From the NCBI GenBank assembly GCA_016929435.1, contig JAFGIV010000026.1, positions 30,097 to 94,096 on the forward strand: a stretch of 64,000 bases of DNA. The letters are read 5' to 3'. This stretch comes from Candidatus Uhrbacteria bacterium (GTDB taxonomy: Bacteria; Patescibacteriota; Patescibacteriia; SG8-24). A program made the translations under genes and the position numbers. Positions 14,224 through 26,843 of the stretch are shown here, piece by piece. The notes under the pieces are model-generated. The model did no database searches and was not told the origin of the DNA. It saw only the letters and a list, made by a program, of their open reading frames with translations. The number at the start of each line of letters is the position of its first letter. Position 1 is the first letter of the stretch.

Positions 14224-15090
14224 CTACGGAGCCATCCTGGCCACCGTCTCGGCCGTGAAGCGGTGTCCGGGCCGGTACACCTCCACCCTTCCGGCCAGGC
14301 GCAGACCCAACAGGGAAATGTCGCCCAGGAAATCCAGCAGCTTGTGGGTGGCCGGCTCGTTCGGGAACCTGAGGGGAGTCAGGAAACGGCCTTCGGTATA
14401 GGTAATGAGCGGCGATTCGCTCGGGTCTTCCGGCAGGATCGGGTAGATGCTTCGGACCCTTTCCCACTTGTCGCTGTCGCCGTCCGCCAGCGGGGAGGAC
14501 ATGAAGCTCCTGGCCGGGGCAACGGCGTCCGCATAGTTACCGTCACCGGAATCGTATCGAACGGTCGCCTTTCCTATCGGGTCCGGAAAGTCGATGTGGC
14601 ATTCGACCGTCAGGCGGTCGTGCGGGGTGGGGGACAGGATCGCCGTTTCCCCTCCCGGTCCGAAAAACGTCTCCCGCTCGGTGATTTTCGCCAGCCGTCT
14701 CCTTTCCGGCAGTTCCCGCACTCCGGCATGGACGATCAGGCGACAGAACCAGTCGGCGGAGAAGTCCCGGAAGGGGATTCCGCAGCGCTTCAGCTCGATG
14801 GCGGCGTTGTCTATGCCCAAACCGTAGAGGGCGGACAGGAGATGTTCGACCGTCCGGACATGGGCCTCCCCGTTCCGCAGGCTGGTGGTGTGGTGCCTTT
14901 CCTGGCGGCAGAGGTTGGCGATGCAGGCCCGTACCGGCCCCTGCGGGGTCCTGAAGACGATTCCGTGGTTAGCCGGGGCAGGGCGGATTTCGGCCACGCA
15001 ATCCCTGAAGTCGTTGGCTGAAATGCCGCAGAGCCGCACCGGACGGGCAATGGTTGCCTGATTTTGGGAACTGACGATTGTTTCCATCAT
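14224..15090 (-). CDS. lpxC: UDP-3-O-acyl-N-acetylglucosamine deacetylase
   Basis: RPAPANHGIVFR, VRTVEHLLSALYGLGIDN, HKLLDFLGDISLLG and TERETFFG align along the whole length with LpxC signature regions. Confidence 0.85.
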   Translation of the reverse strand: MMETIVSSQNQATIARPVRLCGISANDFRDCVAEIRPAPANHGIVFRTPQGPVRACIANLCRQERHHTTSLRNGEAHVRTVEHLLSALYGLGIDNAAIELKRCGIPFRDFSADWFCRLIVHAGVRELPERRRLAKITERETFFGPGGETAILSPTPHDRLTVECHIDFPDPIGKATVRYDSGDGNYADAVAPARSFMSSPLADGDSDKWERVRSIYPILPEDPSESPLITYTEGRFLTPLRFPNEPATHKLLDFLGDISLLGLRLAGRVEVYRPGHRFTAETVARMAP

Positions 15091-15363: not shown

Positions 15364-15702
15364 TTGTTTATGAAACGACACGAGATGAAACTGGCGAAAG
15401 TCCCGTTCGACAAGTTGGCGGCCGGGGTGAAGACCGTCGAATCCCGGCTCTACGACGACAAGAGAAGGGGCGTGGCCGTCGGCGACGAGATCGTCTTCAG
15501 GCTCAACGAAAATCCCGAAGTGACGGTAACCAGGAGGGTGGTGTCCCTGCACGTCTATCCGAACTTCAGGTCAATGATGGCCGATCTGCCCGCCGGCCGT
15601 TTCGGCTGGGATACGGCGGAGGAGGCGACGGCGGAAATCGAGCGTCACTATTTCGCGGAAGACCAGGAAAAATTCGGGGTCATCGGCATCGGGTTGGGTT
15701 GA
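15364..15702 (+). CDS. ASCH (PUA-like) domain protein
   Basis: About 110 aa. MKLAKVPFDKLAAGVKTVESRLYDDKRR...VGDEIVF is typical of the ASCH beta-barrel. Confidence 0.6.
   Translation: MFMKRHEMKLAKVPFDKLAAGVKTVESRLYDDKRRGVAVGDEIVFRLNENPEVTVTRRVVSLHVYPNFRSMMADLPAGRFGWDTAEEATAEIERHYFAEDQEKFGVIGIGLG
15670..15702 (+). repeat. Direct repeat copy 1 (33 bp, 32/33 identical to 17299-17331); 3' end of ASCH gene
   Basis: aaattcggggtcatcggcatcgggttgggttga compared with aaattcggggtcatcggcatcgggttggggtga, read directly from the sequence. Confidence 0.85.
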
Positions 15703-15703
15703 A

Positions 15704-15734
15704 AAACCCGCCGGTATATTACCGGCGGGTTTTC
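15704..15734. terminator. Bidirectional rho-independent terminator
   Basis: Perfect inverted repeat aacccgccggt/accggcgggtt flanked by A- and T-runs, between convergent genes. Confidence 0.6.
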
Positions 15735-15742
15735 ACGACACT

Positions 15743-17098
15743 TCACGGAAATGTACGAAATTCAATTACGATTACGCCCAAAGCTTCCTTCTGATCACCG
15801 TAAAACGACTTTAGGATACCGAAAGCTGTTGTGGCAGAATCAGCATCAGGAACTATCTTACCGAAAGGTTCGTTTTTCAATGTCTCTTTGAAACTTGGAT
15901 ATTCTCGTTTGTCTATCACCTTAACGATCAGGGATTCCTCGTACGTCAAGAAACGAATGTTTTCCCCTTTTTTAATTCCTCTGATCGTATCGTAACCGAC
16001 GCGTACTTCAAGCGTTTTCTCGCCGGACTTTATGAAGTCAAAGAATCGTTTTTTTACACGAATTGTTCGTAAGGTATCCTGATTGATATCAAGACTCCAC
16101 TGTTGGGTTACGACATCGGATCGATATGCAGCCGGCAAAATGGCATCGATTTTCCAGCCGTGATGTTGGAGACACACAACCTCAGACGTCGTTGGGGTTA
16201 TGTGCAAATACAATTTACGTCCTCCATAGCCCGACAATTGGAATGGCAAATCGCTCAATAGGGCATTGAAGGCAAGGTCGTTTGAGGCTATCAGGGGCAT
16301 TAATTTGATGAGCGTTCCTTTTTTTGGGATAGCGGCTGCCACCCCTATTACCTTACCCTCGAAATCTGACGCCACAAAGATGAGCTTGTATTTGGAGTTA
16401 ACATCACCGGAGTCTCTGCGCCCGTATCCGGCAAATAGACTCTTAATCCAGACGTCGTCGATTCCGCTGAATGTTTTCGGTAGGGTGCTCAGGATTAATT
16501 GACGCACTTGTCCCATATCCTTGTCCTCTAACGGGAGAACGGAAATGGCTGGTATGTCTTTCTTGATCAGCGCCTCGTTTTCAGACAGTATCTTGTAAAA
16601 CATCAGTTCCCGACTATCCTTTTTGTAGTGACTATATGAACTTCCGGCACACACGAACCCTTGCCGAAGAAAGAAATTCGTGGCCGCCCGATTTTCCTCT
16701 GCTACAGTGCAATACAATTGTCTGGCACTTCGTTTTCGAACATAATTTTCGACATGGGCGTATAGTGCATATCCCAAACCGCACACACCTCGAAATTCTT
16801 CGGAAACTATGAGGGGACTGATTTTATATGTTTGTTGTCGTTTCCCGACCACATGAATCACACCCGCAAGTTGTCCATCGATTTCCCCGACGAACATTCG
16901 TTGTTCGTGAGAGAAGAAACCAATGTGGTCTCGTCCTCCGGCAAGATGCGTACGAATTATCCGCCGGGCACGAGCCTGATGATCGCCATCATAATATGCG
17001 GTCAGAACGCGGACCATGAGATTTGTCACCCAAGTTTCATCGTCGGCTTTTGCCTCTCTAATGTTAATGTACGGTTTTGTTTCCGTTTTCTTTACCAT
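15743..17098 (-). CDS. Tandem GNAT acetyltransferase fused to a C-terminal ASCH domain
   Basis: Two GNAT-like modules (motif A-like VGKRQQ / QGFV, and a second GKVIGVAAA) followed by an ASCH-like C-terminus. GC content is markedly lower than the surrounding genes. Confidence 0.6.
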   Translation of the reverse strand: MVKKTETKPYINIREAKADDETWVTNLMVRVLTAYYDGDHQARARRIIRTHLAGGRDHIGFFSHEQRMFVGEIDGQLAGVIHVVGKRQQTYKISPLIVSEEFRGVCGLGYALYAHVENYVRKRSARQLYCTVAEENRAATNFFLRQGFVCAGSSYSHYKKDSRELMFYKILSENEALIKKDIPAISVLPLEDKDMGQVRQLILSTLPKTFSGIDDVWIKSLFAGYGRRDSGDVNSKYKLIFVASDFEGKVIGVAAAIPKKGTLIKLMPLIASNDLAFNALLSDLPFQLSGYGGRKLYLHITPTTSEVVCLQHHGWKIDAILPAAYRSDVVTQQWSLDINQDTLRTIRVKKRFFDFIKSGEKTLEVRVGYDTIRGIKKGENIRFLTYEESLIVKVIDKREYPSFKETLKNEPFGKIVPDADSATTAFGILKSFYGDQKEALGVIVIEFRTFP

Positions 17099-17298
17099 TT
17101 CTCAACCATCCTTTCTTTCCTCTTTGCTTCTGAACTTTTATGTACTTAAACAAATTTATCTAATTAAGTCAACCCCTCCCCACGTAAAGGGCATAATCAG
17201 AAACGTATGGTATGGCAAAATACACGGATCAGGGCCTCGAATACCGGGTGCTCGGGACCGTCAAGAACGGAATGAAGGTTATCGCCGAGATCAAGATG

Positions 17299-17331
17299 AA
17301 ATTCGGGGTCATCGGCATCGGGTTGGGGTGA
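17299..17331 (+). repeat. Direct repeat copy 2; terminates a 39-aa ORF (17212-17331)
   Basis: Same 33-mer with one substitution. Both copies encode ...KFGVIGIGLG followed by a stop. Confidence 0.85.
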
Positions 17332-17418
17332 GGGTGGGGGTCAGCGGCAACAAAAAGGGCACTTTTGTTTCCGCAAACCGTTTTGCGTCAACAAATATGG
17401 GCGACATTTCGGATTTAT

Positions 17419-20190
17419 TTATTCGTTCAAGATTTCGCTTACTTTTTTGATGGGTGCCCGGAAACGAACGTCTTTGAACTCGGCGAAGTGCCTTTCTCCA
17501 CAAAGCATCTTCATTTGTTCCCTGTCTCGCAGGTTCAAGTCATTTATATCGATCGTTGATTTGGTTTCCGCCACGAAATAGATTTTCTTGTCCCCGTTCA
17601 TCACTATGGCCCAATCCGGGTTGTATTTTCCGATCGGCGTCTCGATCCTGAACCAATAGGGGAGCTTGAAGTAGAACTGGATATCCTCATTTGATTCCAG
17701 GTCTGCGGCAAAACTTTTCTCGATCGCTGAGTCACAGGCAATGTTGTCGAACAGCGTCTTACCGGGATCGGAAACCGAAAAGTTTAGGGGGTCACCCAGA
17801 TAGGCGTAAAGCTCCTCATTTTCGAATTTCTGCATCTCCCATTCCTGTCCGGTAATCTTTTCGTACTTGATCCCGTCTATCATCATCCTGTTTAGGACCG
17901 TGTTGATGGCCGAAACCGCTCCTTCGATGAATTGCTGCGGGTTGACGATGATGTCCGCACCCCGCCCCGACGCCTTGACGATCTCCAGGATGGTGTCCTT
18001 AGTCAGCTTGGTGTGGTCCTGAATTCGGCCCAGGATATCGGGGATCGGCATGGCCCGGGCGTTAAGCCTCTTCGTTTTCGGCTGCCGTTTCATCTTGCCG
18101 ACCACGCCGGTCTCGGCGCTCATCTCCAATGCGGCCCGCCTGGTGACGATGTTCGGGGCCGTCACCGGAATTTCCTTAAGCAATTCGGACGCTTTCCTGA
18201 CCAGTTCTCCGGAATCGTAGTCGACTTGGTAGCGGGTGCGGTGCTTGATGCGGTTCCAGAGATCAAGGAAATTCTGGTCCAGGGCATACCCTTTCCTGAG
18301 TCGGGCGACGACTCGGTTCTGCCGGTTCTTGATTCGGTTGTCGAATCTGACCCCGCTTTCGTCCTCAATTTCCTGCTGGAGCCTTTTTGCGAAATCCTCG
18401 TAGCTTTCGTTGGCCACGACGGTCAGAATGTTTATGCTGTCGTCGAAGATGCGCTGGCCGTCCTGATTGACCGGCAGGCGCATGCCCCGGCCTATCTCCT
18501 GACGTTTCTTCATATCCGATTTCGTCTCGTTCAGGGTGCAGATCTGGAATACGTTAGGATTGTCCCAACCTTCCCGCAGGGCGGAGTGGGAAAAGATGAA
18601 GCGTATCGGTTCGTCCAAAGATAGGAGCCGTTCCTTGTCCTTCATGATCAGGCTGTAGGTATCGTCATCGGCGGCGGTGTTTCCGTTGGTGTCCCTTAGC
18701 CCTTTCTTGTCCACGGAAAAGTACCCGCCGTGGATCTTCTCGGGCGCATGTCCGACCAGTCCGTGGTATTTCGGGTTGGCCTGCATCTTCCGCACGGCAC
18801 CCTCGAACCAGACGGCGATCTTGCCCTTGCCGACCGTCCCGTCTTCTCCGTAGGTGCGGTAGTTGGCCACCCGATCGATGAAGAAAAGGGTCAGGGCCTT
18901 GATGCCCTTGCCCGCCAATTCCAGTTCCTTGTCGAAATGGTTCTCTACGGCCTTAGCCACCTGATAGCGCATCACCTCATCCTTCAGGACATCGTTGTCC
19001 TGTCCGGACCGGAAAACCTGGCCGTTGCTGAAAGTCACGGTTTGGCTATCGACATCGATCTCGTCCACGATGAAGCCGTCCCGGTACAGTTCCCGGCCGT
19101 TTGACAGGCGGAACAGGTCGGAACCGGCCCAAACGGTGACCGTTTTCCGCTCCACCCGCCCCTTACCGCCGCTTTTGTCCGCATCAACGGCAATCTTGGC
19201 CGTAACGACGTTCTTTTTCGACGTTATCGAATCGACCGCCACGAAGGCCTGGTTGATGTCCGCTTCGGCCATCACCGAATCGACCTCGATCCTCTTGACC
19301 AGGCCCAAATCATAGGCCTGGACCGGGTCGAGCCTATACACCTGGTTATAGGGGTTCTTGTGGGTCGCGGAATAGCGGAGGGTGCAGAGGGGATTGAGGT
19401 TCTCGATCGCCTTTCGGCGGATGTCGGTTTCCATGTTCTGCGGTTCGTCCACAATCACGATCGGCCGCACCCCCCTGATGCATTCGATCGGTACGCCCCA
19501 GTCGCTGTCCTGATAGATGATGTTCTGCCCCCGCTTGGACTCGCTGAACTTGGCGAACGAGTCGATGTTGATGACCAGCACCTGTAGGGCGTCGTTCGTG
19601 GCGAAGGCCTTCATCTGCCCCCGTTTTTTCGGGTCATAAACGTGAAAATCGACCTTGGGGCGGCCGTAGATCAGGTCGAAATGGTCCCTGGTGATCTCCA
19701 GGTTCTTCCAGACCCCCTCCTTGACGGCCAAACCGGGAACGACGACGATGAATTTGCGGAAACCGTGCTTCCGGTGAAGTTCATGGATGGTGCGGAGATA
19801 GACGTAGGTCTTCCCGGTGCCGGTTTCCATCTCCACCGTGAAATCTTTCCCCTTCAGCCGGTCCGCCGCCACTAACCCGTTCCGTGCCTGAATCTCCCTC
19901 AGGTTGTTCAACAGAAGCCCCTCATCCAGTCCGGATCCGTTTCCGATGATGAATTCGTTGCAGATCATCATCTGGGCGGTGGGGGACTGAAGCGCCACGC
20001 CGAAATCGTCGTCCCCGAAAGGAACCTGTCCCCGGAACAGGTCGGTCACGGCCTCGATGGCCTTCAGCTGGTATTCCTGTGTGGCGTCGAACTGGAGTTT
20101 CATAGGCTTTTTTAGGGTCGGTGCAAAGAGAATCATCTTATTTTGGCTAAAATTAGCCAAGCATATTTCTCTTTGCATTTGCGTTTGCAA
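17419..20190 (-). CDS. res: Type III restriction-modification system Res subunit (SF2 helicase plus PD-(D/E)xK endonuclease)
   Basis: Walker A ETGTGKT, DEPQ box (IVIVDEPQN), helicase C-terminal motifs, and a C-terminal nuclease motif (YFVAETKS). Confidence 0.85.
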   Translation of the reverse strand: MQTQMQREICLANFSQNKMILFAPTLKKPMKLQFDATQEYQLKAIEAVTDLFRGQVPFGDDDFGVALQSPTAQMMICNEFIIGNGSGLDEGLLLNNLREIQARNGLVAADRLKGKDFTVEMETGTGKTYVYLRTIHELHRKHGFRKFIVVVPGLAVKEGVWKNLEITRDHFDLIYGRPKVDFHVYDPKKRGQMKAFATNDALQVLVINIDSFAKFSESKRGQNIIYQDSDWGVPIECIRGVRPIVIVDEPQNMETDIRRKAIENLNPLCTLRYSATHKNPYNQVYRLDPVQAYDLGLVKRIEVDSVMAEADINQAFVAVDSITSKKNVVTAKIAVDADKSGGKGRVERKTVTVWAGSDLFRLSNGRELYRDGFIVDEIDVDSQTVTFSNGQVFRSGQDNDVLKDEVMRYQVAKAVENHFDKELELAGKGIKALTLFFIDRVANYRTYGEDGTVGKGKIAVWFEGAVRKMQANPKYHGLVGHAPEKIHGGYFSVDKKGLRDTNGNTAADDDTYSLIMKDKERLLSLDEPIRFIFSHSALREGWDNPNVFQICTLNETKSDMKKRQEIGRGMRLPVNQDGQRIFDDSINILTVVANESYEDFAKRLQQEIEDESGVRFDNRIKNRQNRVVARLRKGYALDQNFLDLWNRIKHRTRYQVDYDSGELVRKASELLKEIPVTAPNIVTRRAALEMSAETGVVGKMKRQPKTKRLNARAMPIPDILGRIQDHTKLTKDTILEIVKASGRGADIIVNPQQFIEGAVSAINTVLNRMMIDGIKYEKITGQEWEMQKFENEELYAYLGDPLNFSVSDPGKTLFDNIACDSAIEKSFAADLESNEDIQFYFKLPYWFRIETPIGKYNPDWAIVMNGDKKIYFVAETKSTIDINDLNLRDREQMKMLCGERHFAEFKDVRFRAPIKKVSEILNE

Positions 20191-20202
20191 AGAGGATTTA
20201 TT

Positions 20203-21081
20203 TCAAACGATTTCCGTTCCTATGGGTTTAGGATTGAATATGTAATATTTACAAGCATATTTTAGATATTCCCCAAGTTCATCCAGGTCAATATTTCCTT
20301 TTGTGACATCGTCGGGATAAATGCTGATTATTAGTTTGTCGCATACTGTTTTTTGTTGAACGGCAAATATAAAAGTTCTAATTATGTAATGAACGGAGGT
20401 TTTTCGCGTTAAATTAGTGGCCCTACCATGTCCAGTATTTATTAACGGAATAGTGATGACGTCATCTTTTTCGGCGTCATTCGATAAACTTTCCCACAAT
20501 CCACCGAGGGATGACAAAAAATCATTATTATCAGAAGTACTTCTGTTTTGTAGATTTTTATATGAATTTGCCAATAGATAAAATTTCTTATTTTTTTGTT
20601 CAATTTCTACCATTGACCCAATTGGGTATTTTCCATCGTCACCCCGCAGAAGATCTTTTTTTTGATTTATGTCAGTTATGAGGTGTTCAACTTGCGATGA
20701 ATAGTACCGACAAATAAGTTCATTTAGTATGCTTGGGTTTTTCGCTTTTATAATGTTTCCTCCTTGTGACGGATCAAATTCATTATTGATGGGCACAACA
20801 AGAGCACCTTTATTTTTGTGGGCATTACCAACTTTTATTTCAATCCAAACATCTTTCCCGTCTATTTTAGATCTAAACGTTGATGGAGGCCGTCTGACTA
20901 TTAATACAACAATAAATACGAACACTAAAATAATAACGGTCAAATTTGTATTAATGTTTTTATCTATCCAATCGTGACTTAAATAATTTCCAACGTTAAT
21001 AATCAACCAGATCACGCCTATGGCTGCCAGTGAGGAGTGGGAGATTAATGACAATCTTTTTGACCATCTTTTGCAGTTCAT
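20203..21081 (-). CDS. Membrane-anchored (2 TM) macro-like domain protein; candidate Thoeris-II ThsA-like effector
   Basis: Two N-terminal hydrophobic helices. Downstream the pattern ALVVPINNEF..GGNI (macro Gly-rich loop-like), a central beta strand, then TIPLINTGHGRATN (second phosphate-binding loop-like) matches macro-domain topology. Very AT-rich. A 1-nt gap separates it from the TIR gene. Confidence 0.45.
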   Translation of the reverse strand: MNCKRWSKRLSLISHSSLAAIGVIWLIINVGNYLSHDWIDKNINTNLTVIILVFVFIVVLIVRRPPSTFRSKIDGKDVWIEIKVGNAHKNKGALVVPINNEFDPSQGGNIIKAKNPSILNELICRYYSSQVEHLITDINQKKDLLRGDDGKYPIGSMVEIEQKNKKFYLLANSYKNLQNRSTSDNNDFLSSLGGLWESLSNDAEKDDVITIPLINTGHGRATNLTRKTSVHYIIRTFIFAVQQKTVCDKLIISIYPDDVTKGNIDLDELGEYLKYACKYYIFNPKPIGTEIV

Positions 21082-21082
21082 A

Positions 21083-21586
21083 CTATAGACCTAAACTGCC
21101 ATATACCTGATTTCCATAATAATAGTCTCCGCTTTTTCCTTCAGCTTTGAGTCTGTAATGTTCGTTCACCCAACTATTTATCGCTCGCCCCAGTATTTTT
21201 TGGTTAAAACTAACATGCATGGTCAACACATCGTTTAAGATGGCCGGGCATCTGTCGACGTCTTTGCTCCGTTTCCCATTCAGATTAACCACTACTATCG
21301 GCAAATTTCTATTTATCGCTTGTTCAATTTCCCATCTAACAAATTTATAAAGATATTTTGTGTTTTCTCCGACAAGCAAAACAAAAAGCTTGGCATTATC
21401 AAATCTTTCCCGCAGCTTCGCTTTTATTGTTTCTTCTTGTGAATCGCCCATCAGTTTATTCAAATCATGGGCGTTATGGAAATCGAATGTCGTATTTTCA
21501 CTTTCCTTCCATGCTTGCATCAACCTGTAATAGTGAATATCATTGTCGGCGTCAAAAGCCACGTATGTCTTATTTGCGTAGGCCAT
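21083..21586 (-). CDS. TIR-like domain protein (ThsB/DUF1863-like)
   Basis: N-terminal KTYVAFDADND..YY (FxSxxxxD-like strand A) and LFVLLVGENTKYLYKFVRWEIEQAI (SxW..WEI catalytic-Glu motif) match the bacterial TIR/ThsB pattern. AT-rich. Confidence 0.5.
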   Translation of the reverse strand: MAYANKTYVAFDADNDIHYYRLMQAWKESENTTFDFHNAHDLNKLMGDSQEETIKAKLRERFDNAKLFVLLVGENTKYLYKFVRWEIEQAINRNLPIVVVNLNGKRSKDVDRCPAILNDVLTMHVSFNQKILGRAINSWVNEHYRLKAEGKSGDYYYGNQVYGSLGL

Positions 21587-21643
21587 AGGTATTCTGATGA
21601 GAAATTATTAGCTGATATTCCTGTGCAGAATCTAATCGGCGTT

Positions 21644-23656
21644 TCATAAGTCGTTAATCCGTACCCCAATTTTTTTGGTTTCATCGGTTATAAGTGCGGC
21701 CGTGTTTAGTGCACTGTTTGTTAATCTATCTTTTCTGAGTTTCAGACGGTCATTGATGAAACGATGACGTAATTCAAATTCACTAAAAATCTCGCTCCAT
21801 TTTTTAACGTAAACCTTGTAATTATCGCAATTGAATATAAGACCATTGTGTTTTTCGCCGTGTGGTTTTGCACTCTCCGTTTCTCTTTCGATATATCCTC
21901 TAGAATCAAAAACGGTTCCAATTAGGATAAAGCGCCACATGGACTTTCTGGAATTGAATCTGGGCTCGTTGATTACTACTTCCATGTATCTTTTAATCTG
22001 TGAGACTTCTTTTTCGCCAATTTTTACAGAAGGTTTTTTGAGTTCAATTATAATATTGTCAATAGTATCATCCGTATTATAATTTTGACGACAGAGGAAG
22101 ATGTCCATTTCCTTGTTTTTGTCTGGGTCGTTCATTTTTGAATCGTTGTTATCACTATTGAGCATGTGCTGATAACTCCTAAGGGCAGATTCAAAATCCG
22201 CTTCGGTGGTACATACTAAATTGTACTGTTCTCCGAATAGCCAATAATTGTCGTCTATTATTTTTTGTAGATGATCCCTTTCATTTGCTGATAGAGTTTC
22301 ATTAAAGACGATTTGTTTAAGATATTCCACGGCCGAATAACGATCCGCTACGAGCTTCCCCATTTTGATAATGTTGGAAAGCTCTGTGGCTTCAAGGAGT
22401 TTTTTCAATAGGATTTTATCGTCTCGGTCAAGTTCTAAGACACTGTCTAGAATTGGCAATATCTGCTCTCTTTCATCAGAATCCAGCAACGCATTCAACA
22501 TCCGCATTATTGTCTTTCTTTGACCAGGACTTGCGGCAGTGAACACCTGTGGCTGAATCTTGCAGACGCCCTCAACGACATTTTCTAGATGCTCTTCTCT
22601 TAGCTGGTCCCATGGTGAATCTGAAAAAGTCGGAAATGTACCCTCATCCTTAAGTTTCTTGACGACTTCTGTGGCGTGCTCTACAAGAAACGGTTTTCGT
22701 TTTTTCCGAAGATATTTTCTCATTTCGGACATTAGAAACTTGTATTCGTCATCGTTTCTTGAATGTCCGATAAGTGAGTCTTGGCCTTCAGGCTGGTCGG
22801 GATTGTAACGGAAGTCGTTAAAAAAATCACTTTGTACGTAAATGCTGTGATAGAAACCGTCACCTTTCTTATTTAATTTTGTAGTGTCTTTCCAAACCTC
22901 TTTCGAATGGCTGTTGAGTAGATAATATCTTGAATACTCATTTTGCAACTGTAATGACCACTGTATGTAATTGACTTTGAACCTGGTGCCTGATTCAGCA
23001 TGAACAAAATCAATACAATCCCTATCATTAATTACTTCATCGTATTTGAGCGCCTCGCCGTTAATATAGATTTTGAAATCCTTTGATTTGTAGAGTTCCA
23101 AGAACCAGCCGAACTCTTGCTTTAGGTATCTCTCTGTCTCTTCCGGAGAGAAATTAAAAATTGAATCAAACGTTACCGTGGTGCCTTTGGGCGCAGTCGT
23201 CTTTTTGGACTTTGTCTTCCCGCCCAAGTATTGGTTAGTTTTGTCATCCTCAATTTCTATTTCATATTCATAAACACCGTCCTGCTTTTCATATCTAGTT
23301 AGCCAGCGTGCTTTAGCAGAAAACGAAACAAAGGACAGTCTGCCTATGCCATTTTTACCATGAGTCAACGTTTTGTGCTGATCATCCCTGTTCTTTTTCT
23401 CAGATTCGTAAAACGGTTTAAATTTATGAGAAAGCTCTTCTTGGGGAATGCCGTTACCATTATCTGATATCATGATTCTACTTATATTTCCGATAATATT
23501 TACCCCCTCATAATTTATGTGGACTTCTGAGGCATTGGCGTCAAATCCATTCCAAATGTATTCCGCGATCGCTTGATACGGTTTAAATTTACCGACGATC
23601 TCCTTTACGCCCTTATCGCCAATCTCAATTGTCTCAAAATCTGCTGATAATGGCAT
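21644..23656 (-). CDS. GHKL-family ATPase (MORC/HATPase_c_3-like) with C-terminal restriction-endonuclease-like region
   Basis: Bergerat-fold motifs: N-box EYIWNGFDANASE (ExxxNxxDA), G1 ISDNGNGIP, G2 HGKNGIGRLS. The C-terminal third carries a D...E-L-K arrangement (MDIFLC...IIIELKKP). The start at 23656 lies 4 nt after the mod stop; the track's alternative start at 23710 would overlap mod. Confidence 0.7.
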   Translation of the reverse strand: MPLSADFETIEIGDKGVKEIVGKFKPYQAIAEYIWNGFDANASEVHINYEGVNIIGNISRIMISDNGNGIPQEELSHKFKPFYESEKKNRDDQHKTLTHGKNGIGRLSFVSFSAKARWLTRYEKQDGVYEYEIEIEDDKTNQYLGGKTKSKKTTAPKGTTVTFDSIFNFSPEETERYLKQEFGWFLELYKSKDFKIYINGEALKYDEVINDRDCIDFVHAESGTRFKVNYIQWSLQLQNEYSRYYLLNSHSKEVWKDTTKLNKKGDGFYHSIYVQSDFFNDFRYNPDQPEGQDSLIGHSRNDDEYKFLMSEMRKYLRKKRKPFLVEHATEVVKKLKDEGTFPTFSDSPWDQLREEHLENVVEGVCKIQPQVFTAASPGQRKTIMRMLNALLDSDEREQILPILDSVLELDRDDKILLKKLLEATELSNIIKMGKLVADRYSAVEYLKQIVFNETLSANERDHLQKIIDDNYWLFGEQYNLVCTTEADFESALRSYQHMLNSDNNDSKMNDPDKNKEMDIFLCRQNYNTDDTIDNIIIELKKPSVKIGEKEVSQIKRYMEVVINEPRFNSRKSMWRFILIGTVFDSRGYIERETESAKPHGEKHNGLIFNCDNYKVYVKKWSEIFSEFELRHRFINDRLKLRKDRLTNSALNTAALITDETKKIGVRINDL

Positions 23657-23660
23657 ATCC

Positions 23661-25556
23661 CTACACGCACTCCACCCCCACCCCAACCGATTCCGCCTGG
23701 AGTAGGGCATTGGTCTTTAGCTGGTCATCGCCGCCGAAGGCGGTGTCCAGGCAGATGATCTTTTCCGGCTTGGCGGCTAGGATCTCGTCGAACATCTTCT
23801 TGGTAATCTTATCCGCCAAGCAGACGGCCAGCTTGCCGCCGTCAACGGAATAGTAGTCGATCCTGTCGGCCTTTTTCCTCTCGATCGGCACGTTCAGGTC
23901 CAGGCCGGATTTCAGGATCAGCTCGTAGAGGACATTCTCCTGGGTTGCGCCCTTCTCAAGGTTGTCCCTGAATATCTCCATCTGTTCCAGCAGTTCCTCC
24001 TCCGTCCGGATATCCTGGTTCCAGATCTTGAAGTTGCTTTTCTCCAGCCGGAAAGCCTTAAACCCGATATCCAGCCTCTTCCCGGTCTCCTTATCCGCCA
24101 GCTCACTGACCACCTTCTTCCCGGCCCGCCGAATCCGCTCCTTGGTGATGTCGGCTATCGTCCTGAACCCGGCCTTATGGGCCTCACTGCTCTCGTCCGT
24201 CTCTTCCGGCAGCTGAATGGAGATGCACTTGCGGTTCCCGCCGTCCTCGGCGTTCAGGGCTATGACGGCATGGGCGGTCGTGCCCGATCCGGCGAAGAAG
24301 TCGAGAATCGTATCGTCTTGTTTGCAAGCCAGCTGAATCGCTTTTTTGATAATGCCAGTTGGTTTAGGATTATCAAAAATTCCTTTTCCCACAATGTCCG
24401 CCAATTCTTCGTTGGAAGCATGGGTGTGTCCGACCTCATCAAAACTCCAAACATCTCCAGCGACACGCTCGTCTGGGAGTTCGGCCAAATAAGTTTTTAC
24501 AGATGGGGTTGTTTTCAAGTCTTTTCCAAACCAAAGTCTATTTTCTTCTTCCAGCCTCTTTAGCGTATTTTGACTATAGCGGGGAAATCTCCCCTGGGGT
24601 GCTTTCCAAGTAACTCCATTTTTGAATCTAAAAACATAGCTCTGACCATGACCACTTTTTGCGTGCAGTGGGGTTGCTTTCCATGGACCACGAGTATCAT
24701 CGTCTGGGTTTGTATATCTGTCATTCATTTCTGCGGTTCTTGGTAATCTCAAATCACGAAGATCATCCTTATTTTTGGCAAACAACAAAACATACTCATG
24801 TTGTTTAGATAAATACTTAGTATCATTCGCTACCGTATATTTACTATGCCAGACTATTTCCGTCACAAAATTATTTTCTCCAAACACTTCATTCATCGCC
24901 ATCCTCAAATTGTGAACCTCATGATCATCGATACTCACGAAAATAACCCCATCCTGCCGCAGAAGGTTCCGGGCCAGGAAGAGGCGGGGATAGATCATGT
25001 TCAGCCAGTCGGAATGGTAATGCCCGCGATCGGCGGTGTTGCGGAACAGGCCGTCGGAGCGGCGATTGCCCTCCTCGTCCCTGATTCCGGCTTCCTTCTC
25101 ATATTCGGCCTTGTCCTGCCGGAAACTGTCGTTGTAGATGAAATCGTTCCCGGTGTTGTAGGGCGGATCGATGTAGATCATCTTCACCTTCCCGTAGTAG
25201 GACTTCTGCATGACCTTCAGGGCCTCCAGGTTGTCCCCCTCGATGAAGACGTTCCCGGTCTTGTCGAAATCGACCGATTCCTTCCGGTTCGGCTTGAGGG
25301 TGGCGGCGGTGGAGGACTGGATGGCCCGGAAGCAGCCGGTCTTGCCGTGCCAACTCAGGCCGTATCGCTCCGGTCCGGTTTCGGCCAAATCGCCCAGAGT
25401 CTTCTTCAGGCGGTCGCAATCCACCTGACCTTCGGTGAAAATTTCCGGGAATCGGGACTTGAGGGTTCCCAAAAGGTCGGCTTGGGGGTTCAGGGACCGG
25501 CTATCGATCTTTTTGATATTCTTGGCTTTCTTAAGCGGTTTTCTGGCGATGGTCAT
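23661..25556 (-). CDS. mod: Type III restriction-modification system Mod subunit (N6-adenine/N4-cytosine DNA methyltransferase)
   Basis: Motif IV IYIDPPYNTGNDF and motif I LDFFAGSGTTAHA in beta-class order, with a target-recognition region between them. Confidence 0.85.
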   Translation of the reverse strand: MTIARKPLKKAKNIKKIDSRSLNPQADLLGTLKSRFPEIFTEGQVDCDRLKKTLGDLAETGPERYGLSWHGKTGCFRAIQSSTAATLKPNRKESVDFDKTGNVFIEGDNLEALKVMQKSYYGKVKMIYIDPPYNTGNDFIYNDSFRQDKAEYEKEAGIRDEEGNRRSDGLFRNTADRGHYHSDWLNMIYPRLFLARNLLRQDGVIFVSIDDHEVHNLRMAMNEVFGENNFVTEIVWHSKYTVANDTKYLSKQHEYVLLFAKNKDDLRDLRLPRTAEMNDRYTNPDDDTRGPWKATPLHAKSGHGQSYVFRFKNGVTWKAPQGRFPRYSQNTLKRLEEENRLWFGKDLKTTPSVKTYLAELPDERVAGDVWSFDEVGHTHASNEELADIVGKGIFDNPKPTGIIKKAIQLACKQDDTILDFFAGSGTTAHAVIALNAEDGGNRKCISIQLPEETDESSEAHKAGFRTIADITKERIRRAGKKVVSELADKETGKRLDIGFKAFRLEKSNFKIWNQDIRTEEELLEQMEIFRDNLEKGATQENVLYELILKSGLDLNVPIERKKADRIDYYSVDGGKLAVCLADKITKKMFDEILAAKPEKIICLDTAFGGDDQLKTNALLQAESVGVGVECV

Positions 25557-25704
25557 AGGTGAGGCGGTTTTTAGGAGGGTGGGGGATTGGCAGATAATTT
25601 TACGATGCCTGTATTCTATCGATTTTTAGGCGCAAAAACAAGGGTGAAATTTGAGGAAAAATAGGGTGGATTGTTTACGGAAAATGGGGTAAGATTTTGA
25701 TGTT

Positions 25705-26082
25705 ATGACCTCAAAAACACCGAAACAACTGATGGCACTTCTCAAAGATAAACATTTCCTCCTTTTTGCGCTGGCAATGTTATTTATGATTTTACCCGGC
25801 ATTCCTGCATTTTATTTGTTCCACCGGGAGGAGTTTATGACGATAGATTGGATAAAATTGAGTCTCTTGTCTGCGGCACTTGAGTTACCTATGGTATTTT
25901 TGGGAATATTTATAATGCCGATTTTTTTTGACAACCAGACCGAAAAATCCAAAAAAGACGATTTCTTCTTTGAAGTCGCCTTTTCTGCCTTAAAGAATTT
26001 TTCGGCTTCAAAGAAATTTACTGTTTTGCCACCATCTGCATGGCAGCCATGGCGGTTTTCGCCGCCATCAAATCGTCTATAA
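25705..26082 (+). CDS. Small AT-rich membrane protein (hypothetical)
   Basis: 125 aa with 2-3 predicted TM helices. Its low GC matches the inserted cassette. Confidence 0.3.
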   Translation: MTSKTPKQLMALLKDKHFLLFALAMLFMILPGIPAFYLFHREEFMTIDWIKLSLLSAALELPMVFLGIFIMPIFFDNQTEKSKKDDFFFEVAFSALKNFSASKKFTVLPPSAWQPWRFSPPSNRL

Positions 26083-26153
26083 ATAAAAAAAATAGAATAA
26101 GCCCCATCCCTAATTCCAAACTTTGGAATCAAGAAACGAAGAGTGCCTAATTT

Positions 26154-26843
26154 ATGTCCTCCTTCAAATCCGTTGCCGTCCGTGTCTTGAAAAGGGCGGG
26201 GAAACCGCTGCACAGCAAGAAAATTACCGAGATTGCCCTCGGGAACGGCTGGCTGAAATCGAGCGGCGCTACGCCGTGGGCCACGATGAACGCCCTCCTG
26301 GTTACCGACGTGAATGCCCGAAAGGACAAATCGCCGTTTACCAAAATCGGACCGTCGATTTTCGGACTTAACGCCGAGTTTGTTACCGAGAAACCCGCCA
26401 AAAAATCGGCCTCGGCTCCGATGGACGAGGAATTCGTCAAGCACTCGATCATCAAGTACATCTCCTGCAAGGGGTGGGGCTCGTTCCAGTATGGCGGGTT
26501 GCACGAACACGGTGTCGATATCCGGGCCAAGCAGCAGCGGTATTCCCGATACCTGAACATCGAGACGAAGGGGACATCGGGAAAGGGCTCGGCCAACGAG
26601 ACGGGTTTCGTCTATGGTTTGGGTCAGATTGTCACCCGGATCAGGGACACCGGCAAGACCCGAAACTACTACGGTATCGGCCTGCCGGAATCCTCCGCCC
26701 GAATCGCCCGGCGCCGTTTGCCGTGGCAGGTGGCCAAGAAGCTGCTCCTGTTCGTCTATTCCGTTTCTGCCGACGGCGCGGTGGAGGAGTATTCGTGGAA
26801 AGAATTGAGGAACTCACAGAAGGAGAAAAAGTCCATCTTTTGA
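26154..26843 (+). CDS. HARE-HTH domain plus PD-(D/E)xK nuclease-fold protein (restriction-endonuclease-like)
   Basis: N-terminus KKITEIALGNGWLKSSGATPWATMNALLVTD resembles the HARE-HTH winged helix. A central HGVDIRA...YLNIETKG gives a D-x(n)-E-x-K nuclease motif. Confidence 0.5.
   Translation: MSSFKSVAVRVLKRAGKPLHSKKITEIALGNGWLKSSGATPWATMNALLVTDVNARKDKSPFTKIGPSIFGLNAEFVTEKPAKKSASAPMDEEFVKHSIIKYISCKGWGSFQYGGLHEHGVDIRAKQQRYSRYLNIETKGTSGKGSANETGFVYGLGQIVTRIRDTGKTRNYYGIGLPESSARIARRRLPWQVAKKLLLFVYSVSADGAVEEYSWKELRNSQKEKKSIF

What the first reader, a model, noticed from the sequence alone, without database searches (positions are those of the whole stretch)
20203..21586. TIR-like plus 2TM-macro-like gene pair resembling type II Thoeris (ThsB/ThsA-macro)
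The 167-aa protein carries ThsB/DUF1863-type TIR hallmarks: FDADND near the N-terminus and a WEIEQAI catalytic-Glu motif. The adjacent 292-aa protein, separated by a 1-nt gap, has two N-terminal TM helices. Its soluble domain follows macro-domain loop patterns (VVPINNE..GGN and PLINTGHGRATN). In type II Thoeris a TIR protein makes an ADP-ribose-derived signal, and a macro/TM protein senses it and kills the cell through membrane damage. If the match is real, this is a Thoeris-II-like module nested inside an R-M operon.
Basis: partly seen in the sequence, partly recalled or inferred. Interest (0 to 1): 0.7.

Follow-up and report, generated by a model that had tools for sequence, protein, structure and literature searches.

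The report
Type II Thoeris nested in restriction operon
The two genes are a genuine but ordinary copy of a known anti-phage alarm system (type II Thoeris), picked up from another organism and slotted between the two genes of a restriction-modification operon, a junction where related operons often hold other defence genes.

Summary
The 167-aa protein (21083-21586, minus strand) is a ThsB TIR-like protein (Pfam PF08937 2.3e-20; PADLOC ThsB 6.9e-75). Its model matches the E. coli ThsB2 crystal structure (TM 0.87) and keeps the Tyr8/Glu86 active-site pair. The 292-aa protein (20203-21081) has two N-terminal membrane helices and a ThsA Macro domain (PF20016 8.5e-28). Its model matches solved ThsA Macro domains best, including the His-ADPR complex, and it keeps the Arg that holds the histidine carboxylate.

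The pair lies in a 3.45-kb low-GC insert (34-39% GC) between the mod and res genes (52-55% GC) of an intact type III R-M operon, next to an unrelated GHKL-ATPase gene.

Two points are new. A 39-nt relic of a res start codon region sits between the GHKL gene and thsB, so the two cargoes were stacked separately. About half of related type III operons (33 of 64) carry other defence cargo at the same junction, and three show similar relics. About 30% of related Thoeris pairs sit inside type I R-M operons.

Verdict: a new member of a known kind. The embedding of defence genes in R-M operons is already described in general.

The parts
21083..21586 (-). thsB: a 167-aa TIR-like (DUF1863/PF08937) sensor and signal synthase. 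Key residues are Y8, the W26xxxE30 motif, the catalytic E86, and a C-terminal tail with Y157/Y162.
   Evidence: Pfam 2.3e-20. PADLOC ThsB 6.9e-75 over 1-167. PDB 8v6t 2.6e-31 by sequence and TM 0.87 by fold. Y8, W26, E86 and Y162 are invariant in 30 homologues.
20203..21081 (-). thsA: a 292-aa effector with two transmembrane helices followed by a Macro domain.
   Evidence: Pfam PF20016 8.5e-28. PADLOC ThsA 2.4e-42. AlphaFold2 pLDDT 88.5. Top Foldseek hits are solved ThsA Macro domains. A profile search against the PDB gives 3.4e-12 to EcThsA and 7.3e-11 to BaThsA.
20980..21054 (-). ThsA transmembrane helix 1 (residues about 10-34).
   Evidence: Kyte-Doolittle peak 1.99. Model helix 10-34.
20896..20949 (-). 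ThsA transmembrane helix 2 (residues about 45-62).
   Evidence: Kyte-Doolittle peak 2.74. Model helix 45-62.
20317..20844 (-). ThsA Macro domain (residues 80-255). Ligand-pocket residues are N86, S173, R220 and Y255.
   Evidence: The Pfam match covers 80-255. The alignment to BaThsA (8r66) places S194, R240 and Y277 on S173, R220 and Y255, and D100 on N86.
21610..21648 (-). Relic of a res 5' end (ATG plus 12 codons, MKRRLDSAQEYQL) in the spacer between the GHKL gene and thsB. Its ATG overlaps the GHKL stop codon. It marks the boundary between two separately acquired cargoes.
   Evidence: It is a direct repeat of the true res start at 20066-20104, identical at 30 of 39 positions. The next best match of that 39-mer anywhere in the 64-kb window, on either strand, is 23 of 39.
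21644..23656 (-). Co-embedded 670-aa GHKL (MutL/MORC-like) ATPase with a weak C-terminal match to a nuclease domain. It is a separate cargo gene, not a Thoeris component.
   Evidence: HATPase_c_3 1.5e-18 and HSDR_N_2 3.3e-5 (24.4 bits, just under the 25-bit cut-off). No PADLOC hit. More than 1800 homologues. In three other contexts it stands alone beside RM-like systems with no Thoeris genes.
23661..25556 (-). Type III R-M methyltransferase (mod), the upstream flank of the insert.
   Evidence: N6_N4_Mtase 9e-42. PADLOC MTase_III 1.9e-206. GC is 52%, and it drops to 37-40% immediately after the mod stop codon.
17419..20103 (-). Type III R-M restriction subunit (res), the downstream flank. The likely start is the ATG at 20103 (the longest ORF starts at a TTG at 20190).
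   Evidence: ResIII and RE_endonuc domains. PADLOC REase_III 4.7e-277, starting at residue 30 of the long ORF. The N-terminus MKLQFDATQEYQ matches 70 relatives.
20104..20202 (-). Structured 99-nt spacer between thsA and res, with nested hairpins.
   Evidence: RNA fold of 20095-20215: -26.7 kcal/mol, z = -3.66, and 0 of 200 shuffles fold as well. Its function is not tested.

Best explanation

Mechanism, inferred from characterised homologues: ThsB senses infection and uses its Tyr8/Glu86 TIR active site to convert NAD+ into a histidine-ADP-ribose (His-ADPR) signal. The signal binds the pocket of the ThsA Macro domain (R220, S173, Y255, N86). Ligand-bound Macro domains oligomerise and cluster the two N-terminal membrane helices. 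This impairs the membrane and stops growth of the infected cell before phage are released.

Origin, shown directly by the sequence: the module is horizontally acquired, low-GC cargo. It was stacked independently of a neighbouring GHKL-ATPase gene at the mod-res junction of an intact type III R-M operon. It is co-directional with that operon, so it is probably co-transcribed and co-transferred with it. It most likely acts as an independent second defence layer rather than as a part of the R-M enzyme.
For: Shown here:
- Family membership of both proteins by Pfam and PADLOC.
- Confident models whose best PDB matches are EcThsB2 and the ThsA Macro domains.
- The ThsB active-site Tyr8 and Glu86, the W26xxxE motif and the C-terminal tail tyrosines are invariant or nearly so in the family. 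They match the 'subfamily 9' ThsB that occurs only with TM-macro ThsA (PMC11204291).
- ThsA keeps the BaThsA ligand residues S194, R240 and Y277 as S173, R220 and Y255. R240 contacts the histidine carboxylate of His-ADPR.
- Two transmembrane helices.
- thsB lies directly upstream of thsA in the window and all but two related loci examined, 26 of them genome loci (exceptions: L039, no ThsB detected; Carnobacterium plasmid, order reversed).
- GC steps from 52-55% to 34-39% exactly at the mod stop and the res start.
- The res-5' relic between the GHKL gene and thsB.
- Mod and Res are full length.

From the literature:
- BaThsB makes His-ADPR, which activates BaThsA through its Macro domain (10.1101/2024.01.03.573942).
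- Nucleotide-induced Macro oligomerisation clusters the TM domains (PMC11204291).
- E. coli thsA plus thsB2 defends against T4. Defence needs both TM helices and the WxxxE Trp (10.64898/2026.01.22.701046; ThsB2 is the closest solved homologue).
Against: - Nothing was measured: neither activity, nor signal, nor phage resistance.
- The adenine-N6-binding Asp (BaThsA D100, at least 90% conserved in this ThsA family) is Asn here. This variant occurs in only 2 of the 34 homologues aligned.
- The equivalents of BaThsA N133 and Q135 could not be placed with confidence.
- ThsA lacks about 9 C-terminal residues that most homologues have.
- Purified EcThsB2 showed no NADase activity in vitro (PMC11204291), so the chemistry of this ThsB subfamily is proven only indirectly.
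- For the E. coli homologue, growth arrest without markers of cell death was reported, so 'membrane killing' may be too strong.
Confidence: 0.85

Rival explanations
1. The embedded Thoeris pair is functionally wired to the host R-M enzyme, as the anticodon nuclease PrrC is wired to EcoprrI. It would be held silent by, or would monitor, the type III Mod/Res complex, and would fire when a phage anti-restriction protein disables it.
For: The pair lies strictly inside the operon and is co-directional with it. The same Thoeris clade recurs inside type I R-M operons in 8 of 27 species-level genome loci and in further metagenome and plasmid loci. PrrC sets the precedent (discussed in 10.1101/2024.01.29.577857).
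Against: Most relatives of the pair (19 of 27 genome loci) lie outside any R-M system detected, for example next to ribonucleotide reductase or PPDK genes, or on a Synechococcus plasmid. The R-M partners differ in type (I versus III). The junction cargo in related type III operons is highly diverse, which fits a passive hotspot. Characterised type II Thoeris systems work without any R-M system (10.1101/2024.01.03.573942; 10.64898/2026.01.22.701046).
Confidence: 0.06
2. The module is a decaying passenger that is no longer functional, carried along only because it sits inside a selected R-M operon.
For: The D-to-N change at the adenine-binding position and the shortened ThsA C-terminus. Decay of embedded copies does occur: thsA is split into two ORFs in L032, L037 and apparently L030.
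Against: Both ORFs are intact with the canonical tight 1-nt coupling. All invariant ThsB residues and nearly all invariant ThsA residues are retained. Asn at position 86 is also found in two other full-length homologues, P0007 and P0008. Models are confident. Several homologues also have short C-termini.
Confidence: 0.08
3. The architecture is the same, but ThsB makes a signal other than His-ADPR. Candidates are imidazole adenine dinucleotide, plain ADPR, or a deoxynucleotide-derived product, given that the Tyr-Glu site resembles nucleoside 2'-deoxyribosyltransferases.
For: The ThsB model also resembles NDT/DNPH1 enzymes, though weakly. EcThsB2 was inactive on NAD+ in vitro, and ThsA macro domains bind IAD and ADPR (PMC11204291). 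ThsA here is only about 20% identical to the ThsA proteins with solved ligand complexes.
Against: The Arg that reads the histidine carboxylate is nearly invariant in this family and present here (R220). According to PMC11204291, BaThsB, which makes His-ADPR, also has the active-site Tyr. LC-MS detection of His-ADPR is listed among the methods of a study of a P. aeruginosa type II system (10.64898/2026.06.04.730250).
Confidence: 0.12

Closest known systems
Type II Thoeris of Bacillus amyloliquefaciens Y2 (BaThsB / BaThsA; PDB 8r66, 9uuz)
   Same: Two-gene module of a TIR-like ThsB and a 2TM + Macro ThsA. It has the macro fold and the pocket residues S194, R240 and Y277, which correspond to S173, R220 and Y255 here.
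   Different: About 22% identity in the Macro domain. D100 is Asn here. ThsB matches only weakly PDB 9uv0, a ThsB chain presumed (not verified) to be BaThsB (7e-10 over residues 10-114). Here the pair is embedded in an R-M operon.
E. coli type II Thoeris (EcThsA, EcThsB2; PDB 8v6q/8v6r, 8v6t)
   Same: [quoted passage not shown] EcThsA is the best structural and profile match for ThsA. thsA plus thsB2 is sufficient for defence.
   Different: The E. coli locus has a second ThsB (ThsB1), its thsB2 is oriented opposite to the other two Thoeris genes, and it is not inside an R-M operon. The ThsA proteins are only about 21% identical.
Defence genes embedded in multi-gene DNA-modification systems ('guilt by embedding', Payne et al. 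2024; TgvAB in the V. cholerae type I R-M; PrrC in EcoprrI)
   Same: Co-directional defence cargo sits between the genes of an R-M operon. The cargo is diverse and exchangeable.
   Different: Those studies covered Hma, BREX, DISARM and type I R-M systems. Type III mod-res junctions and Thoeris cargo do not appear in the text or the held supplements. No res-5' relics or any other mechanism of embedding were described there.
Type I Thoeris (SIR2-SLOG ThsA, gcADPR signal)
   Same: A TIR sensor/synthase paired with a signal-activated effector.
   Different: The effector here has no SIR2 or SLOG domain. The signal and the killing mechanism differ.

Membership tests
Type II Thoeris | ThsB: a TIR-like domain (PF08937/DUF1863 or PF13676) with the catalytic glutamate. 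| tested here: met
   PF08937 at 73.3 bits against a cut-off of 21.2. E86 aligns with EcThsB2 E89 and is invariant in 30 homologues. The fold match to 8v6t has TM 0.87.
Type II Thoeris | The ThsB class specific to TM-macro systems: an active-site Tyr next to the Glu, and a C-terminal tail of about 20 residues ('subfamily 9'). | tested here: met
   Y8 is invariant. The tail tyrosines Y157 and Y162 align with EcThsB2 Y159 and Y164. The definition is from PMC11204291.
Type II Thoeris | ThsA: a C-terminal Macro domain of the ThsA type. | tested here: met
   PF20016 at 97.8 bits against a cut-off of 25. The top eight Foldseek hits are ThsA Macro structures. The profile search against the PDB gives 3.4e-12.
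Type II Thoeris | ThsA: two N-terminal transmembrane helices. | tested here: met
   Hydropathy peaks 1.99 and 2.74. Model helices 10-34 and 45-62.
Type II Thoeris | thsB and thsA are adjacent and co-oriented as one module. | tested here: met
   A 1-nt spacer. thsB lies directly upstream of thsA in 26 of 27 genome loci and in the metagenome loci; no ThsB was detected in L039.
Type II Thoeris | The His-ADPR binding pocket (BaThsA D100, N133, Q135, S194, R240, Y277). | tested here: inconclusive
   S173, R220 and Y255 are conserved. D100 is replaced by N86, where the family consensus is D. The N133 and Q135 equivalents are ambiguous in the alignment.
Type II Thoeris | ThsB produces His-ADPR on infection, and the pair protects against phage. 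| not testable with these tools
   This needs LC-MS and plaque assays. Homologues have been shown to do so (10.1101/2024.01.03.573942; 10.64898/2026.01.22.701046).
Type I Thoeris | ThsA with SIR2 and SLOG domains. | tested here: not met
   Only ThsA_Macro is detected.
Type III restriction-modification operon (the host of the insert) | A Mod methyltransferase plus a Res subunit with helicase and endonuclease domains, co-directional. | tested here: met
   PADLOC MTase_III 1.9e-206 and REase_III 4.7e-277. Pfam N6_N4_Mtase, ResIII and RE_endonuc.
Embedded defence cargo (sensu Payne et al. 2024) | Genes lying between the genes of a multi-gene defence system, in the same orientation. | tested here: met
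   The order is mod, GHKL gene, thsB, thsA, res, all on the minus strand. 33 of 64 related type III operons carry at least 600 bp of cargo at the same junction.

The most novel reading that the evidence does not exclude
The mod-res junction of this type III R-M lineage may be a dedicated capture site for defence cassettes. New modules would enter by recombination within the conserved first 13 to 43 codons of res and leave res-5' relics at cassette boundaries. Relics are seen here between the GHKL gene and thsB, and in loci L079, L092 and L093. Cassettes such as Thoeris II, CBASS-like cyclases, SIR2-HerA and OLD nucleases would then be stacked, swapped and co-expressed with the R-M genes. This would amount to an integron-like organisation of immunity built on an R-M operon.
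Probability: 0.3. Interest if true: 0.55.

Novelty: new member of a known kind. Interest (0 to 1): 0.3.

Why it matters
As a Thoeris system it adds little. It is one more divergent member (at most 48% ThsA identity to anything in the databases searched) of a family that already has structures, a known signal and proven function. Its value lies in the context.

It shows a signalling, growth-arresting system placed inside a type III R-M operon. That junction turns out to be occupied by varied defence cargo in about half of related operons. A sequence scar (a duplicated res start) shows that cargoes were added one at a time.

This extends the 'embedded defence' idea to type III R-M systems and hints at how embedding happens. 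It could guide the discovery of new defence genes at that junction, including the uncharacterised GHKL-ATPase next door.

Tried and rejected
- NCBIfam has no model for either protein.
- A single-sequence search of the PDB with ThsA was weak (about 3e-4). A family profile was needed to reach 3e-12.
- The look-up of the closest ThsA homologue, P0003, found no contig. Its locus was recovered later as L013.
- Promoter and terminator consensus scans of 17000-26200 were not above the shuffle expectation (16 found versus 13.2 expected, and 11 versus 11.9). They say nothing about transcription units.
- There are no tRNA genes in the window, so no tRNA-linked island boundary.
- Phage genomes hold almost no relatives of this ThsB (one weak hit). 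Phage carriage was therefore dropped, although the L006 context looks prophage-like.
- I considered the GHKL ATPase as a third Thoeris component and rejected it. It has no Thoeris neighbours in three other contexts, no other ThsBA locus carries it, and the res relic separates it from thsB.
- A protein-level HMM of the Res N-terminus did not recover the window's 13-codon relic at E < 0.05. The evidence for it is at nucleotide level (30 of 39 against a background maximum of 23).
- Searches of the Payne et al. main text and 11 supplements for Thoeris or type III R-M found nothing.
- The equivalents of BaThsA N133 and Q135 could not be assigned without model coordinates.

Full report
**What is there.** On the minus strand the window carries a tight, co-directional gene row:
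- mod, 23661-25556
- a 670-aa GHKL ATPase, 21644-23656. Its likely ATG lies 4 nt after the mod stop codon.
- a 167-aa ORF, 21083-21586
- a 292-aa ORF, 20203-21081
- res, 17419-20103 or 17419-20190 depending on the start chosen

They are separated by one nucleotide (TAG-T-ATG), and all the quoted motifs are present.

**Identity of the 167-aa protein.** It matches Pfam ThsB_TIR (PF08937, 2.3e-20). It also matches a PADLOC ThsB model end to end (6.9e-75). By sequence its closest solved relative is E. coli ThsB2 (PDB 8v6t, 2.6e-31). Its AlphaFold2 model (pLDDT 80) superposes on that structure with TM 0.87 and rmsd 2.3 A.

The paper that solved 8v6t defines a ThsB class found only with TM-macro ThsA effectors. 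[quoted passage not shown] Here the corresponding residues are Y8, E86, Y157 and Y162. Y8, E86 and Y162 are invariant, and Y157 nearly invariant, in an alignment of 30 homologues that are 60-68% identical. The WxxxE tryptophan, whose mutation abolishes defence in E. coli thsB2 (10.64898/2026.01.22.701046), is W26 here.

**Identity of the 292-aa protein.** It matches Pfam ThsA_Macro (PF20016, 8.5e-28). It also matches PADLOC ThsA models over nearly its whole length (2.4e-42). Hydropathy and the AlphaFold2 model (pLDDT 88.5, pTM 0.83) agree on two N-terminal helices, at residues 10-34 and 45-62, followed by an alpha/beta domain.

Foldseek against the PDB returns the ThsA Macro structures as the top eight hits: EcThsA free and with ADPR (8v6q, 8v6r), BaThsA with its signal (8r66), and PcThsA with IAD (8v6s). 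Generic macro domains come after them. A family profile finds the same chains by sequence, at 3.4e-12 to 7e-7.

I mapped the His-ADPR contacts described for BaThsA onto the alignments:
- S194, R240 and Y277 correspond to S173, R220 and Y255 and are conserved. R240 is the residue that reads the histidine carboxylate, and R220 is nearly invariant in the family.
- The adenine-N6 Asp (D100) is Asn here (N86). The family consensus is Asp, and Asn also occurs in two other homologues.
- The equivalents of N133 and Q135 cannot be fixed from sequence.
- ThsA also ends about 9 residues earlier than most homologues.

The family is sizeable and diverse. A search of 1.84 billion cluster representatives found 712 at E <= 1e-3. 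This protein is its own 50%-identity cluster, and its closest relative is 48% identical.

**How it most likely works.** By homology, ThsB converts NAD+ to His-ADPR on infection. ThsA binds the signal in its Macro pocket, oligomerises and clusters its membrane helices. The outcome is membrane impairment or growth arrest (10.1101/2024.01.03.573942; PMC11204291; 10.64898/2026.01.22.701046; 10.64898/2025.12.03.692087). Domain identity, the key residues and gene coupling are shown here. The signal, the trigger and the outcome are inferred.

**Context: an insert in a type III R-M operon.** Mod and Res are full-length type III subunits (PADLOC 1.9e-206 and 4.7e-277). GC content is 52% in mod and 55% in res, but 39%, 39% and 34% in the GHKL gene, thsB and thsA. 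The steps fall exactly at the mod stop and the res start, and the surrounding genome is about 60% GC. The three middle genes are therefore foreign cargo.

The GHKL ATPase (HATPase_c_3 plus a weak match to an HSDR_N_2-type nuclease domain) belongs to a large family of more than 1800 hits. In three other contexts examined it sits alone beside type I or MmeI/SNF2-type R-M-like systems, with no Thoeris genes nearby. It has no PADLOC model.

**A scar that separates the two cargoes.** The first 39 nt of res (ATG at 20103, MKLQFDATQEYQL) are repeated at 21610-21648 with 30 of 39 identities (MKRRLDSAQEYQL). This copy lies in the 57-nt spacer between the GHKL gene and thsB, and its ATG overlaps the GHKL stop codon. 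No other position in the 64-kb window, on either strand, exceeds 23 of 39. The simplest reading is an earlier mod-GHKL-res arrangement into which thsBA was later placed just after codon 13 of res. So thsBA is a module of its own.

**Is the nesting a one-off?** It is not.
- I examined 27 species-level genome loci that encode relatives of this ThsA. In eight of them the pair lies inside, or directly within the gene row of, a type I R-M operon: L013, L015, L017, L018, L024, L027, L028 and L032. L013 ends just upstream of thsA, so only the downstream hsdR is seen, and L027 is RM-like.
- The same holds in metagenome loci L004 and L011. A Carnobacterium plasmid has macro-TIR directly upstream of hsdM-hsdS.
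- The remaining loci are solo or in other contexts.

Looking from the R-M side, 80 relatives of this Res were retrieved (38-59% identity). Of these, 64 have mod upstream on the same strand. In 33 of the 64, at least 600 bp (up to 4.9 kb) of almost always co-directional cargo lies between mod and res, while 28 have gaps of 50 nt or less.

The cargo falls into more than 40 sequence clusters. It includes SIR2 + HerA, a SMODS/AGS_C cyclase, OLD-family and AAA_15/21 ATPases, Schlafen-AlbA2, AAA + subtilase, RhuM, a YhcG nuclease, and a 5mC methylase with another GHKL ATPase. None of these loci has a Thoeris pair. Res-5' relics at cargo boundaries recur in L079, L092 and L093.

**Comparison with what is known.** Embedding of defence genes in Hma, BREX, DISARM and type I R-M systems has been described and exploited for discovery (10.1101/2024.01.29.577857). 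TgvAB in a type I R-M operon and PrrC in EcoprrI are worked examples. Type III junctions, Thoeris cargo and boundary relics are not mentioned there. They are modest extensions of a known principle.

**Verdict.** The finding is a new, divergent member of a well-characterised system, in a known kind of genomic arrangement. Interest is low to moderate. The most interesting residue is the evidence that the type III mod-res junction is a recurrent site where cargo is added one piece at a time.

Noticed in passing
window 21610-21648 and 20066-20104: A 39-nt relic of a res start (30 of 39 identical to the real res 5' end; background maximum 23 of 39) lies between the GHKL gene and thsB. Its ATG overlaps the GHKL stop codon. 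It implies stepwise stacking of cargo at the res 5' end.
   Followed up: yes
L043-L122 (relatives of the type III Res); relics at L079:7870, L092:5704, L093:2790/3325/4103: 33 of 64 related type III operons carry 0.6-4.9 kb of co-directional cargo between mod and res. The cargo includes SIR2+HerA, a SMODS cyclase, OLD nucleases, Schlafen-AlbA2, RhuM and a YhcG nuclease. Three of these loci also have duplicated res-5' fragments at cargo boundaries.
   Followed up: partly
window 21644-23656 (minus strand): A 670-aa GHKL/MutL-like ATPase with a weak C-terminal match to an HSDR_N_2-type nuclease domain. Its family has more than 1800 members, and in three other contexts it sits alone beside R-M-like systems. 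It has no PADLOC model. Its best NCBIfam hit is a BbrUII/HgiDII-type restriction enzyme, far below the cut-off. It is a candidate uncharacterised defence gene.
   Followed up: partly
window 20104-20202 (minus strand): The thsA-res spacer folds into nested hairpins (-26.7 kcal/mol, z = -3.66 for 20095-20215). It could be an attenuator or a processing site in front of res.
   Followed up: no
window 24400-25000: There is a low-GC patch (39-46%) inside mod, which is otherwise 52-63% GC. It may be an exchanged target-recognition domain.
   Followed up: no
window 14224-15090 and the whole window: NCBI labels the contig Candidatus Uhrbacteria (a CPR lineage), yet it is about 60% GC and encodes LpxC and an FGE-sulfatase protein. 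It may be mis-binned.
   Followed up: no
window 15364-17098 and 26154-26843: The R-M/Thoeris block is flanked by further moderately low-GC genes: a GNAT+ASCH fusion (451 aa), a small ASCH protein, and a HARE-HTH protein (229 aa). The region from about 15 to 28 kb looks like a larger acquired island.
   Followed up: no
L032:3856-4688, L037:9956-10797, L030:9986-12217: In some related loci thsA is split into two ORFs or interrupted, so embedded or solo copies do decay. In L093 the res gene itself appears frameshifted.
   Followed up: no
ThsB is much more conserved than its partner. There are 1695 ThsB hits, many at 60-68% identity, against 36 ThsA hits at 48% identity or less. The sensor/synthase appears constrained while the effector diverges quickly.
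   Followed up: no
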